A stretch of 64,000 bases of DNA from Angelvirus px29 (Duplodnaviria > Heunggongvirae > Uroviricota > Caudoviricetes > Straboviridae): positions 75,520-139,519 of IMG/VR virus record IMGVR_UViG_2700988902_000001; one strand, written 5' to 3'. Below the pieces are notes generated by a model. The model did no database searches. It was given only the letters and a program-made list of their open reading frames with translations, and was not told where the DNA came from. How positions within the stretch are numbered: the first letter of the stretch is position 1; each line of letters begins with the position of its first letter. A program made the translations under genes and the position numbers. Below are positions 1,570-26,265 of this stretch, piece after piece.

Positions 1570-2500
1570 TGGTTTGTTCATTATTTATGCTATTTACAAC
1601 GTTTTTGCTGAATTTTTCGACAATACTATCGATCAGATCTTGACGCTTGATATTGTCAATCAACCACGAATCAAACTCTTGACTGTTACCGCTAATCGAG
1701 CTATAAGCACCGATCATAGATCCATAAATGCTCGCAACGGTATCGCTATCTAGTCCCATATTCGCGATGCAGTAGATCCCATATTCTTTGTGTTCGAACA
1801 TCAAGAACGTGCGCCACGCGATTGTCAACGAGTCTTTGACATAGCCAGTAGGCAGACATTCGTTTTGATCAAAGAAGTGTCCAAACTCGTTTTCGAGTTG
1901 TTCCTTTTTGACGCCAGCTAGAATACGATGCATGATCTTCACATACAGTAAAGAATATTCAACGCAAATTTCTACCGGGTGTGTGAACTCAGTCATTTCT
2001 CGGACAATGCGTTCCACGCTGGCTGGATCGCGACCAAACGTTGCCAATGCAACTGGGTACATACGCATAAGCGCACCATTACCAGCGCCTTTGGCAGCGT
2101 CACAGATGGGTTTACCGTACAGTGCGTTAAATGTAGATGCGCCGATGTCAAAGCATTCCATATTGGATGCGAATGAACCATGCTCTACCCAAGCTCGCAT
2201 TTGTCGCATGATTTGCGGAATATCAAACTCGCCGTTTTTGAAGCAATTCATAGTGATCAACGCGCAAGTGGTATCATCGGTAAAATAACCGTAGTCATGA
2301 CCCCAGACATCCCTTTTAGTCTGCAACAGCTCAAGAGTCACTTTTCTGAGTTTCTTTTTTCCTTTAGTGCCAAAATTGAATTCGTTGAATGATCCGACAC
2401 AATCCCCAATGATTGCCGCTTGTGTAGTCATTCGAATTTGTTCTGCAAAGTAATTCACGTAATCTCCAAAATAAAAGGGTCTATCAATCGATAGACTCAT
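1544..2500 (-). CDS. ADP-ribosylglycohydrolase (DraG/ARH family)
   Basis: Motifs GDCVG, FTDDT, CFDIG, GNGALMR, T..TH, DSDTVASIYG; likely start MSLSIDRPF at 2500. Confidence 0.88.
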   Translation of the reverse strand: MSLSIDRPFYFGDYVNYFAEQIRMTTQAAIIGDCVGSFNEFNFGTKGKKKLRKVTLELLQTKRDVWGHDYGYFTDDTTCALITMNCFKNGEFDIPQIMRQMRAWVEHGSFASNMECFDIGASTFNALYGKPICDAAKGAGNGALMRMYPVALATFGRDPASVERIVREMTEFTHPVEICVEYSLLYVKIMHRILAGVKKEQLENEFGHFFDQNECLPTGYVKDSLTIAWRTFLMFEHKEYGIYCIANMGLDSDTVASIYGSMIGAYSSISGNSQEFDSWLIDNIKRQDLIDSIVEKFSKNVVNSINNEQTKKVAPATA

Positions 2501-2525
2501 ATTGTACTTCAACTTTCTATGTAAA

Positions 2526-3143
2526 TCAACGACGATGTGGAATAATTGATTCCAGATAGTTATTGACGTAAACAACATCACCGGCAACACGTTGCAAATT
2601 GCAATCTTCTTGCTCGGACTTGACAGAGTGAAACATTACTTGATCTTTTTCGTTTCCCGGTCGAGCGATTTTGAGCAGAATGAATTCCTGAGTCATAGGA
2701 TCGATAATCGGTTCGCCACCCATTTTCAGAACTTCCAGCTTGGAACCACCGTGACGATACAGATCGATAACATCACCCTCGGAAATTGCACGACCGGAAA
2801 TAAGACCCGGATTCATTACTTTGCGTACTTTGTGAGCGTAGAAACCACCACGCTTGACCCAACCAAGTGTGCTAACATCGATGCTTTCGTTTGTGATGCC
2901 AAAGCTAACTTTGTTAACTCGGGTAATCAGCGCGTTGCCGTTCACGATACGCATAGAAACACGTTCGTCGCCCGCTTCCATGTTGTATACTGGCTCAACG
3001 TTATTACCAGTGCGCTCGATGTTCAACAGAACATAAGAACGATTTTGAATCTCGATTGTATCACCCGGTTGACCATCAATCAGACGAACATAGTTAATTT
3101 CGATTTGCGGCAGTGCAACTTGGTGTTTCAGATAATAAGCCAT
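2526..3143 (-). CDS. Hypothetical protein (205 aa)
   Basis: ORF with AGGA RBS, co-oriented with its neighbours. Confidence 0.75.
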   Translation of the reverse strand: MAYYLKHQVALPQIEINYVRLIDGQPGDTIEIQNRSYVLLNIERTGNNVEPVYNMEAGDERVSMRIVNGNALITRVNKVSFGITNESIDVSTLGWVKRGGFYAHKVRKVMNPGLISGRAISEGDVIDLYRHGGSKLEVLKMGGEPIIDPMTQEFILLKIARPGNEKDQVMFHSVKSEQEDCNLQRVAGDVVYVNNYLESIIPHRR

Positions 3144-8254: not shown

Positions 8255-8374
8255 TGGCGGGGAAGACGGGACTCGAACCCGCGACCAATAGTTTAATTTG
8301 CGTTGGCTTGCTGTAAAGAATCTTCTCAGATTCCGCTTTTTGCGTCTACTGCTCTACCACTGAGCTACTTCCCC
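8255..8374 (-). ncRNA. tRNA-like RNA with an expanded anticodon loop containing hairpin+TTTACAGCAA
   Basis: Acceptor GGGGAAG/CTTCCCC-G-CCA, canonical D and T arms, about 55 nt in place of the anticodon loop. Confidence 0.8.
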
Positions 8375-8519: not shown

Positions 8520-8648
8520 TTGTTGTCGCGATGTTGGATTCGAACCAACGACGTTTCTCGATGTGCCCACACTATAACGGATTCGAACCGTACTCGATAC
8601 TTCTTTGCGATCAAAGGTGTTCTCCCACTGAACTAATCGCGACAACAA
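8520..8648 (-). ncRNA. tRNA-like RNA with two T-arms
   Basis: 13-bp terminal stem, D-arm, hairpins ACGG-TTCGAAT-CCGT and GTTGG-TTCGAAT-CCAAC. Confidence 0.7.
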
Positions 8649-16406: not shown

Positions 16407-17173
16407 TAGTGGCCCCGGTGGGAATCGAACCCACAACGAGCGGTTATTCTTTTAAGAACTCGATTATGGATTTTCCATTCTCCAATTCTTTAATTTGTGA
16501 ACTTTTAAGGACGATAAGGTTTTTAACGGACTTCCACTTACAACGATCTCGTTCACGCTCATAACCTTTAACCTCTATGTAAAGATCCATAGACGGTAGA
16601 TAAAAGTCCGGAAAATATAGATGTTCTCCGTTTTCCCAGCTATAAACGAAAGGAGTAATCTCGTTAGTGTATTCTATGTTAGCAGAACTTAGGCATTTTG
16701 CAACCAATAGTTCCCATTTCCCTTTAAATGTTTGTCCTTCAAACGCATACATCTTAACGCGACCAGATACGTTGTTTTGCTGTAAGAATCTGGGTTGTTT
16801 TTAACAACTTCCTTCATGACTTTCGAAAATTTAATTCTTTGTTCGTCCGTCCAAATGGTCTCATTCATACTCTTTGCGGCATCGGATAACTTTTTCTAGT
16901 CTCTTCCGAAATGACAGGTTTATCCAAACCAAGTCTGGTCGCTTTTGTGTATTGGTTTGTGCCTTTACATCCGAGTTTCGATGGAACGTGAAACTTTATT
17001 TTATTTTGGATTTTTGGAACAACGAACTTCGTGTTGTCTAAGTGAATTTTGTATTCTTACAGATTTTGTCGCAGTATGCGCAGTTCATTAGATTATCTCC
17101 TAGATTGTGTTATATCACTATTTATCTAAGAGATTGTGTGAGCCGCTTGCTTGAACCCTCTAGCTACGGGGCC
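16407..17173 (-). tRNA. tRNA-Ile2(CAT) interrupted in the anticodon (5' half 17139-17173, 3' half 16407-16446)
   Basis: Joined halves give GGCCCCG..AGCGG-CTCA|TAA-CCGCT..GTGGG-TTCGATT-CCCAC-CGGGGCC-A, resembling bacterial tRNA-Ile2. Confidence 0.8.
16444..17088 (-). mobile_element. PD-(D/E)XK-type homing-endonuclease-like gene (frameshifted) inserted in tRNA-Ile2
   Basis: CxxC/HxxxC N-terminus, SEETRKKLS repeat, YFPDFYLP..D.YIEVKG core; own ATAAATA promoter and AGGAG RBS; four single-base shifts in A-runs. Confidence 0.75.
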
Positions 17174-25639: not shown

Positions 25640-25742
25640 TTGTCGAGGCGACTGGATTCGAACCAGCGACCGAGTGCTTCTTATGTGCTCTCGTAAAAGT
25701 TCATAAGAAGGCACTTGCTCTATCCGTCTGAGCTACGCCCCG
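25640..25742 (-). tRNA. tRNA-Arg(TCT) with a 26-nt insertion (25680-25705) after U36
   Basis: Removing the insert gives AGTGC-CTTCTAA-GCACT; Arg-type D-loop GGATA. Confidence 0.8.
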
Positions 25743-25767
25743 GCAATGTGTTCTTGAATGACTGGAA

Positions 25768-26265
25768 TCAAGGACTCCAGTCAAAATTTAAATCTTCTGT
25801 ATACTCTTCAAGTATACGCAAGTTGTAATCGATTGTAAACGACTTTGGCAAAACAAAATCAGGGCCAACATCATAACTAGCGGTAATGTGTGGATGATAA
25901 TCAGGATAATCATGAGTTGCCCCATGTTTCTCTCTGATCTCTTTGTGTCTAGCGCCAAACCAAGGGTCTGTGAGCTTTAGCACAAGAGCACGTTTGCCGC
26001 TTTGTGTTTCGAAGATATCAGGAATCATGACACCTTGCAACGTTTTTTCCATAGTACCATACGCTTTGAAATCAGGCAAGTATTTTCTGGAGTAAACCAA
26101 CGTGGTGTGCATCTTATCATAGGGTACCAGATTAGGGATACCCATTTCGCGACATCTTCTAACAATAGCCATAGCAGTGCGAGGCTTGTAACGAACTGCT
26201 ACATAAGTGCCTCGCGTTTCTTTTTGCTCCGTCGTCTCAGTGAATTCTGAAAACGACAGCATCAT
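25768..26265 (-). CDS. 57B: gp57B 2H phosphoesterase (Acb1 anti-CBASS homolog)
   Basis: Two HxT motifs (MHTTL, HITA); T4 synteny 57B-57A-1-3. Confidence 0.85.
   Translation of the reverse strand: MMLSFSEFTETTEQKETRGTYVAVRYKPRTAMAIVRRCREMGIPNLVPYDKMHTTLVYSRKYLPDFKAYGTMEKTLQGVMIPDIFETQSGKRALVLKLTDPWFGARHKEIREKHGATHDYPDYHPHITASYDVGPDFVLPKSFTIDYNLRILEEYTEDLNFDWSP

What the first reader, a model, noticed from the sequence alone, without database searches (positions are those of the whole stretch)
25640..25742. tRNA-Arg(TCT) with a 26-nt intron-like insert after U36
Deleting TATGAACTTTTACGAGAGCACATAAG (25705-25680) restores an exact 5-bp stem and 7-nt loop CTTCTAA. The insert pairs back over the anticodon (CTTCTTATG/CATAAGAAG), hiding it as eukaryotic pre-tRNA introns do. 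It follows U36 and ends in G, matching the site and boundaries of bacterial group I introns in tRNA-Arg(CCU) and tRNA-Ile(CAU), but it is far too short to self-splice. This is the only Arg tRNA in the window. It may be a group I remnant, an enzymatically spliced mini-intron or a nuclease-resistant decoy.
Basis: partly seen in the sequence, partly recalled or inferred. Interest (0 to 1): 0.75.

Follow-up and report, generated by a model that had tools for sequence, protein, structure and literature searches.

The report
RNase III-shaped mini-intron in arginine tRNA
The only arginine tRNA gene of this Aeromonas phage is split right after its anticodon by a 26-base hairpin shaped like the piece that the bacterial enzyme RNase III cuts out of RNA; the same kind of insert also interrupts what looks like the only copy of this tRNA gene on some bacterial chromosomes, which points to an undescribed, still untested way of splicing tRNAs.

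Summary
Removing 25705-25680 gives a canonical tRNA-Arg(UCU) whose exons match the intronless orthologue of Aeromonas phage phiAS5 at 67 of 73 positions. It is the genome's only Arg tRNA.

The insert belongs to a family: 40 distinct 24-32-nt inserts after U36 of Arg(UCU), plus Thr, Lys, Ile and Gly cases. Most form a covarying 10-11-bp hairpin whose last two bases pair with anticodon bases 35-36. The junctions are thus staggered by 2 nt with 3' overhangs, the RNase III geometry. The window insert matches 14 of 16 positions of the published RNase III consensus at these junctions (null P about 1.5e-4), including the U-G/U-A distal box.

It is not a group I remnant or a BHB intron. Best model (about 0.65, inferred): host RNase III excises it and phage Rnl1 (or Rnl2) seals the 3'-OH/5'-P ends. 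The same inserts interrupt the syntenic, apparently single-copy chromosomal Arg(UCU) gene in Treponema MAGs, which argues for real splicing. No spliced RNA was seen; the available data could not show it.

The scan noted this class before on other DNA (e1-5431218, e1-2137074); the chromosomal cases appear new.

The parts
25706..25742 (-). 5' exon of tRNA-Arg(UCU), positions 1-36; Arg identity elements A20 and C35; anticodon UCU at 25708-25706
   Evidence: 67/73 exon identity to the intronless phiAS5 gene
25680..25705 (-). 26-nt hairpin intron: 10-bp stem with a 2x2 internal loop (25705-25696 with 25691-25682), UACG tetraloop (25695-25692), terminal AG (25681-25680) pairing with U36 and C35
25690..25697 (-). 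RNase III distal-box-like pairs: U-G at stem position 9 (25697/25690) and U-A at position 10 (25696/25691)
   Evidence: U-G in 19/22 and U-A in 18/22 aligned members while positions 1-8 covary freely; box defined in PMC1540722
25702..25705 (-). RNase III proximal-box-like strand: U-A, A-U, U-A, G-C pairs at positions 1-4 from the 5' junction
   Evidence: matches the pb4-pb1 preferences of PMC1540722; consensus score
25643..25679 (-). 3' exon, A37 to discriminator A73; CCA not encoded
25768..26265 (-). upstream gene gp57B = Acb1 anti-CBASS 2H phosphodiesterase, labelled 'RNA ligase' in RefSeq/PHROG; context only, not the ligase
   Evidence: Pfam PF23474 E=9e-36
25811..25839 (-). sigma-70-like promoter match about 70 nt upstream of the tRNA (consensus match only, function untested)

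Best explanation
The insert is a true intron of a small hairpin class, removed by general cell and phage enzymes rather than by a ribozyme or a splicing endonuclease. SHOWN: the pre-tRNA folds so that the anticodon stem, the anticodon loop and the insert form one long helix, and the two exon-intron junctions lie on opposite strands two base pairs apart with 3' overhangs, 10-11 bp from the hairpin loop. INFERRED step 1: host RNase III binds the proximal and distal boxes in the insert and cuts both strands, releasing a 26-nt hairpin and leaving exons held together by the anticodon stem, with 3'-OH on U36 and 5'-phosphate on A37. INFERRED step 2: the phage's ATP-dependent RNA ligase seals U36-A37. 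Rnl1, specialised for breaks in stem-loop loops, is the likelier enzyme; Rnl2 is the alternative. Host CCA-adding and modifying enzymes finish tRNA-Arg(UCU), which reads AGA (19% of this phage's Arg codons). INFERRED, weaker: such inserts persist because these enzymes make them nearly neutral, and may spread because they break the target of tRNA-gene-specific homing nucleases.
For: (1) Intronless orthologue at the same locus with nearly identical exons. (2) Family of 40 distinct Arg(UCU) inserts of 24-32 nt, all ending in AG; 33/33 among loci from scans that did not require AG. (3) The terminal dinucleotide is the complement of bases 35-36 in Thr, Lys, Ile and one Gly case. (4) Stem covariation: 87.7% of cells paired, 9 of 10 pairs with compensatory changes, slid controls 44-51%. 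(5) The window matches 14/16 defined positions of the Krinke-Wulff consensus (as quoted in PMC5141509) at the junctions; slid registers score 3-9; pair-shuffled null P=1.5e-4; 16 cluster representatives average 9.25 against a null of 6.1 (maximum 8.4 in 3000); eukaryote-type 37/38 introns score 5.0. (6) The U-G/U-A distal box is kept at positions 9/10 and position 3 is the best paired (39/40), as in E. coli substrates; the two central pairs are formed and include a C-G. (7) The genome encodes Rnl1 (TIGR02308, 615 bits) and Rnl2 (TIGR02307) but no RtcB, EndA or RNase III; all eight near-complete carrier phages searched have both ligase families. (8) In Treponema MAGs G027, G054 and G152 the interrupted gene lies at the locus (V-ATPase K and/or RelA-TPR neighbours) where relatives keep their one intronless Arg(UCU) gene; no intronless copy was found in these assemblies, and AGA is a quarter of local Arg codons. 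All three encode RNase III and a PF09414 ligase (Rnl5-like where typed, G027). A Chitinophagaceae MAG (G028) is similar. (9) The 43-nt Treponema inserts keep the first 11 bp and expand only beyond them.
Against: The window stem is 10 bp plus tetraloop, and that length cost the E. coli minimal substrate 50-fold in reactivity. 18/40 members have C-G next to the scissile bond, a 7-fold catalytic antideterminant in E. coli. Some members score poorly (5-7/16; L420 4/16), and for three Thr members the consensus scores higher two pairs inward. Three of four Gly(GCC) inserts do not pair with C35-C36. The exon side of the helix has only 2 bp, a bulge and 5 bp before the tRNA junction. Rnl1 and Rnl2 are also in intronless phiAS5, and the PF09414 ligase is in about 16 of 36 close Treponema relatives, so co-occurrence is permissive, not diagnostic. 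The MAGs are incomplete and family members are not independent.
Confidence: 0.65

Rival explanations
1. It is a spliced intron, but another nuclease makes the cuts (an unrecognised phage or host dsRNA or tRNA endonuclease, possibly leaving cyclic-phosphate ends healed by a phage kinase-phosphatase before Rnl1 ligation).
For: All the evidence for splicing holds. Several members fit the E. coli RNase III rules poorly. T4-like phages have a general anticodon-repair route (PMC4408790).
Against: The 2-nt 3' stagger, the 10-11-bp helix and the U-G/U-A box at 9/10 are RNase III features. No EndA in five carriers. No nuclease family recurs beside most inserts.
Confidence: 0.13
2. It is not spliced. 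The RNA is a masked-anticodon tRNA mimic (a decoy or RNase III sponge), or it is cut by RNase III and left in two pieces like an rRNA intervening sequence; in the phage the gene is dispensable because the host supplies tRNA-Arg(UCU).
For: Only unspliced sequence was seen. C-G at the cut-adjacent pair can uncouple RNase III binding from cleavage. This genome has other tRNA mimics and a nuclease-split tRNA gene. IVS excision fragments rRNA (PMC8708148).
Against: Removal restores an exact 7-nt loop in five isotypes. Chromosomal, syntenic, apparently single-copy genes for the only tRNA able to read AGA carry the insert in several Treponema lineages. A tRNA nicked in the anticodon loop should not decode (inference).
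Confidence: 0.15
3. It is a degenerate group I intron or a neutral palindromic DNA scar that has inactivated the gene.
For: The insertion site after nucleotide 36 and the terminal G agree with bacterial tRNA group I introns (site from my own knowledge; terminal G in PMC3984707). The insert is roughly palindromic with the anticodon. Nucleases of one family sit beside or inside tRNA genes here.
Against: No core and no group I match in Rfam; U36 pairs with A; the terminal base is C, A or U in other isotypes. Narrow length, compensatory changes and intact exons show selection.
Confidence: 0.07

Closest known systems
E. coli RNase III substrates: T7 R1.1, the uR1.1 minimal substrate and its 28-nt product RNA 6 (PMC1540722); in vivo rules (PMC6212723)
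   Same: Hairpin of about 11 bp plus tetraloop, 2-nt 3' overhang, U-A/U-G distal box, A-U-rich proximal box with G-C at position 4, paired central positions with one C-G. The 28-nt family members have the size and shape of RNA 6.
   Different: Here the cut sites coincide with tRNA exon boundaries and the flanks must be rejoined; the window stem is one pair shorter than the minimal optimum; cleavage is untested.
Intervening sequences (IVS) of bacterial 23S rRNA (Burgin 1990, as reviewed in PMC8708148)
   Same: A sporadically present stem inserted in a structural RNA and excised by RNase III.
   Different: IVS are 100-200 nt and leave the rRNA fragmented; this insert is 26 nt, lies in an anticodon loop and is useful only if religated.
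Archaeal and eukaryal protein-spliced tRNA introns (EndA/TSEN plus RtcB or Trl1)
   Same: A short intron in the anticodon loop removed by cut and ligation; the intron pairs with the anticodon loop.
   Different: Site 36/37 rather than 37/38; continuous helix with a 2-nt stagger instead of bulge-helix-bulge; no EndA gene; predicted 3'-OH/5'-P ends rather than cyclic phosphate/5'-OH.
Bacterial tRNA group I introns (tRNA-Ile CAU, tRNA-Arg CCU; PMC3984707)
   Same: Insertion after nucleotide 36; the Arg members end in G.
   Different: No catalytic core, no U-G splice-site pair, terminal G not kept across isotypes.
'Enigmatic' tRNA introns of Lak megaphages (PMC6784885)
   Same: Non-self-splicing inserts in phage tRNA anticodon loops, with intronless alleles in relatives; mechanism unknown.
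   Different: The Lak Tyr intron shown is 93 nt, and the Thr intron is described as tRNA-like; neither is described as a short hairpin with this geometry.
T4 anticodon repair by Pnkp and Rnl1 (Amitsur 1987, cited in PMC4408790)
   Same: A phage ligase seals a break in a tRNA anticodon loop.
   Different: There the break is damage by a defence nuclease and needs end healing; here it would be programmed and directly ligatable.

Membership tests
Group I intron | P3-P9 catalytic core with G-binding site | tested here: not met
   26 nt, single hairpin; no Rfam group I match in the window
Group I intron | U-G wobble at the 5' splice site in P1 | tested here: not met
   U36 pairs with A, probability 1.0
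Group I intron | Invariant terminal G | tested here: not met
   G in Arg members, but C, A or U in Thr, Lys, Ile and most Gly members
Archaeal/eukaryal BHB tRNA intron | Bulge-helix-bulge motif, canonical site 37/38 | tested here: not met
   continuous helix across both junctions, site 36/37
Archaeal/eukaryal BHB tRNA intron | EndA/TSEN splicing endonuclease available | tested here: not met
   PF01974 not found in 5 carrier genomes; rings in the 4 archaeal controls
RNase III double-cleavage substrate | Cut sites on opposite strands offset by 2 nt with 3' overhangs, central pairs formed | tested here: met
   C35-G and U36-A lie between the junctions; 40/40 Arg inserts end in AG
RNase III double-cleavage substrate | Distal box U-A/U-G at positions 10/9 | tested here: met
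   present in the window; 19/22 and 18/22 in the alignment
RNase III double-cleavage substrate | Proximal box: G-C at 4, A-U or U-A at 1-3 | tested here: met
   window meets all four; the family only partly (C-G at position 1 in 18/40)
RNase III double-cleavage substrate | Helix of at least 11 bp between cut and loop | tested here: inconclusive
   window has 10 positions with a 2x2 internal loop plus UACG; Aeh1/Ah1 and many others have 11
RNase III double-cleavage substrate | Actual cleavage by RNase III at the predicted bonds | not testable with these tools
   needs an in vitro assay or 5'-P end mapping
tRNA intron (any class) | Removal restores a canonical tRNA, and intronless orthologues exist | tested here: met
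tRNA intron (any class) | Spliced product exists in vivo | tested here: inconclusive
   only assembled contigs were available; no joint seen
rRNA intervening sequence (IVS) | Located in rRNA and left unligated after excision | tested here: not met
   lies in a tRNA anticodon loop; ligation state untested

The most novel reading that the evidence does not exclude
Bacteria and their phages have a third route of tRNA splicing besides self-splicing and EndA-type splicing: a minimal hairpin intron that encodes an RNase III site is cut out by host RNase III and the exons are sealed by an ATP-dependent RNA ligase (Rnl1/Rnl2 in phages, Rnl5-like in some bacteria). On some bacterial chromosomes it interrupts the essential tRNA-Arg(UCU), which would give these ligases a physiological substrate.
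Probability: 0.6. Interest if true: 0.92.

Novelty: categorically new. Interest (0 to 1): 0.82.

Why it matters
Bacterial tRNA introns are thought to be self-splicing, and RNase III excision of inserts (rRNA IVS) is thought to end in fragments. A cut-and-ligate pathway built from RNase III and an Rnl-family ligase would be a new class of intron. It would offer a mechanism for part of the 'enigmatic' phage tRNA introns and a candidate natural substrate for Rnl5-type ligases, whose substrates are unknown (PMC4408790). It would also correct annotation: Aeh1's gene is filed as tRNA-Glu and the others are unannotated. It is directly testable with cultured phages (Aeh1, Ah1 and phiWae14 with the insert, phiAS5 without) and commercial RNase III and T4 Rnl1/Rnl2. 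The rating 'categorically new' is conditional on the inferred splicing step; every enzyme involved is known.

Tried and rejected
RNA evidence: the run search gave only Logan contigs, mostly wastewater libraries that are probably DNA. Laying four runs showed the unspliced form and no joint; contigs cannot show a mature modified tRNA, so this counts neither way.

Adjacent 'RNA ligase' (gp57B): rejected; it is Acb1.

Phage-encoded RNase III, RtcB, EndA: not found in this genome. RtcB was found in one of five carriers searched.

ARAGORN intron mode gave wrong isotypes and was not used. The Aeh1 annotation as tRNA-Glu(UUC) is rejected, because the hairpin loops differ among relatives and are not anticodon loops.

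The after-35 register (Arg UCG) is rejected by the intronless orthologue; it would also need a blunt cut.

A dedicated neighbouring processing gene: none recurs among 71 flanking ORFs; one HNH family matched 5 of them.

A long, nuclease-bearing version of this intron: none in viral contigs with 35-65-nt inserts. By inspection, the ends of the nuclease cassette in the window's split Ile/Met(CAU)-type tRNA gene show no such hairpin (the repeat search failed).

Scan 43 required a terminal AG and scan 44 required the distal box, so those hits were not used to test those features. The literature searches found no description of this class; the library lacks most subscription papers.

Full report
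OBSERVATION. The minus strand at 25742-25643 holds a complete tRNA body, with a 26-nt insert at 25705-25680 between U36 and A37. ARAGORN skips it; Rfam scores it 52 bits as tRNA. Deleting the insert gives a cloverleaf called tRNA-Arg(tct), with Arg identity bases A20, C35 and A73 and no encoded CCA. It is the only Arg tRNA among the 23 standard tRNA genes of the 222-kb genome. AGA makes up 19% of the phage's Arg codons. In the precursor, U33, U34, C35 and U36 pair with A38, A37 and the insert's last two bases with probability 0.98-1.0.

CONTEXT. The window is from a T4-like Aeromonas phage close to Aeh1, Ah1, avDM12-TAAL, phiAS5 and phiWae14. The gene follows gp57B, which RefSeq labels 'RNA ligase' but which is the anti-CBASS enzyme Acb1. 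At the orthologous locus phiAS5 has an uninterrupted Arg(UCU) gene that matches the window exons at 67/73. Aeh1, Ah1 and avDM12-TAAL have related 28-nt inserts, and phiWae14 has a different 26-nt hairpin, all between U36 and A37. Aeh1's gene is annotated tRNA-Glu; the others are unannotated.

FAMILY. Pattern scans of viral, metagenome and genome collections gave 40 distinct Arg(UCU) inserts that do not start with A. They are 24-32 nt long and all end in AG, including 33 of 33 from loci found by scans that left the end free. The 29 inserts that start with A are ordinary 37/38 introns; they have varied ends and no such pairing, and served as control. Isotype-free scans and one distal-box-biased scan added Thr(UGU), Lys(UUU), Ile(UAU) and Gly(GCC) cases. 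Their last two bases are AC, AA, AT and, in one of four Gly cases, GG, the complement of anticodon bases 35-36. In 22 aligned members the 10-bp stem is 87.7% paired, with compensatory changes at 9 of 10 pairs, against 44-51% for slid partners. The shape is under selection; the sequence mostly is not.

MECHANISM: THE CUT. The pairing puts the two junctions on opposite strands, two pairs apart, with 3' overhangs, 10-11 bp from the loop. This is how RNase III cuts (PMC6212723). The window insert matches 14 of the 16 defined positions of the Krinke-Wulff consensus (quoted in PMC5141509) when the junctions are taken as cut sites. Sliding them by 1-3 pairs gives 3-9, and shuffling the stem pairs reaches 14 with P=1.5e-4. 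Sixteen cluster representatives average 9.25 against a null of 6.1 (maximum 8.4); the 37/38 introns average 5.0. The distal box of PMC1540722 (U-A and U-G at 10 and 9) is the most conserved part: U-G 19/22, U-A 18/22. Position 3, the dsRBD contact, is the best paired (39/40). No RNase III gene was found in any of 32 virus records searched, so the enzyme would be the host's. That Aeromonas RNase III follows E. coli rules is inference.

MECHANISM: THE SEAL. RNase III leaves 5'-phosphate ends and 3'-OH ends (own knowledge), the substrate of ATP-dependent ligases. Rnl1 seals breaks in stem-loop loops; Rnl2 and Rnl5 seal duplex nicks (PMC4408790). This genome has Rnl1 (C1:189621-190247) and Rnl2 (C1:154909-155490) and lacks RtcB and EndA. 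Every near-complete carrier phage has both families, but so does intronless phiAS5, so the ligases permit the insert rather than mark it.

CHROMOSOMAL CASES. The strongest argument that the insert is really removed comes from bacteria. In Treponema MAGs the interrupted gene lies among V-ATPase, RelA-TPR and flagellar genes, at the locus where relatives keep a single intronless Arg(UCU) gene, in six cases with the same letters on both sides of the insert. Three of 218 family genomes (G027, G054, G152) carry inserts of 28 or 43 nt, and further metagenome contigs (L382, L401) show other lineages. The G027 contig also appears in G152, probably by misbinning, so these are not fully independent. No intronless copy was found in these assemblies, and AGA is 32 of 140 Arg codons next to the gene. 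The 43-nt versions keep the first 11 bp with the U-G/U-A box and grow only beyond it. All three genomes have RNase III and a PF09414 ligase, typed as Rnl5-like in G027 though below the family cut-off. In seven genomes of this group, three of them intronless, the ligase lies within about 2 kb of rnc, which may be a single inherited arrangement. A Chitinophagaceae MAG (G028) shows the same pattern with Rnl1-like and Rnl5 ligases, though its insert fits the consensus poorly. The MAGs are incomplete, so single copy is likely, not proven.

WEAK POINTS. No RNA-level evidence exists: only contigs could be laid, and they show the unspliced form. The window stem is one pair short of the E. coli optimum, which cost 50-fold in the minimal substrate, although here the exon side adds further helix. 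Nearly half of the members have a C-G pair next to the cut, a 7-fold antideterminant. Some members score low, and three Thr members score higher two pairs inward.

ORIGIN. phiWae14 has a nuclease gene directly after its interrupted tRNA. It is homologous to the nuclease that splits another tRNA gene in this window (39% over 61 aa, E=1e-11) and to one about 2 kb from a Thr member. An insert in the conserved anticodon arm could therefore shield the gene from tRNA-targeting homing nucleases. Only a minority of members have a nuclease neighbour, so this is a lead, prompted in part by note e1-5402558.

COMPARISON AND VERDICT. The element works like a protein-spliced tRNA intron but fails the defining tests of group I and BHB introns. 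It passes the sequence and geometry tests of an RNase III substrate. Searches of the held literature found phage tRNA introns only as unexplained (PMC6784885) and no RNase III-plus-ligase splicing. I recorded the RNase III reading before consulting the scan's notes. Earlier agents reached a similar reading on other genomes, which is not independent evidence; the chromosomal cases were not in the notes I could retrieve. Probabilities: RNase III plus ligase 0.65, spliced by another nuclease 0.13, unspliced or cut-only 0.15, remnant or scar 0.07. Interest 0.82.

Noticed in passing
window 8255-8374 (-): Second tRNA-like RNA with a roughly 45-nt A-rich/hairpin/ACAGCAA insert in the anticodon arm; conserved in Aeh1 (annotated tRNA-Val), Ah1, phiAS5, LAh_6 (L010) and a 735-kb phage (L009, where an intact Arg UCU loop follows the insert).
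   Followed up: partly
window 16407-17173 (-): tRNA gene with a CAU-type loop split by a roughly 690-nt nuclease cassette whose stop codon overlaps the 3' exon; the nuclease is homologous to the one beside phiWae14's tRNA-Arg. No RNase III-type hairpin seen at its ends.
   Followed up: partly
L005:1636-2376 (-), phage phiWae14: 246-aa endonuclease gene (PHROG 15137) inserted just after the interrupted tRNA-Arg, flanked by a short direct repeat of the downstream spacer; the tRNA exons there are strongly diverged, as if tRNA and nuclease moved together.
   Followed up: partly
L473:463-1488 (+) and 2065-2685 (-); also G033, G037, G041, G044, G045, G048: PF09414 (Rnl5-like) RNA ligase gene within about 2 kb of rnc (RNase III) in seven termite-gut Treponema MAGs.
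   Followed up: partly
L478:4315-4434 (G028:C2:298314-298433): 120-nt tRNA-like RNA with a long structured insert in the anticodon arm, 3.4 kb from an Rnl1-like ligase gene, in a Chitinophagaceae MAG.
   Followed up: no
L475:1039-2022 and downstream (G028:C7:76673-77660): Rnl5 ligase (TIGR02306 above cut-off) directly followed by an array of six tRNA genes.
   Followed up: no
L012, L014, L024, L027, L030, L041, L049, L053, L059: Viral tRNAs with a UCU anticodon loop and a long class II-type variable arm, unusual for Arg.
   Followed up: no
L194:9290-9390 and L299:6510-6610: Hairpin inserts that fit best after position 35 (Thr UGU; Arg CCU) rather than 36; L194 has a relative of the phiWae14 nuclease about 2 kb away.
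   Followed up: partly
window 25760-25782 (-): Hairpin overlapping the acb1 stop codon, conserved in all five relatives just upstream of the tRNA-Arg gene; possibly a processing or termination signal.
   Followed up: no
G000:C1:60869-60890 and 149538-149561 (outside the window): Two perfect palindromic hairpins that also match both arms of the RNase III consensus; candidate processing sites or terminators.
   Followed up: no
window 8520-8648 (-): ARAGORN's 'tRNA-Ala(cgc)' call is a tRNA-like RNA with two T-arm motifs, below Rfam's cut-off (22 bits).
   Followed up: no
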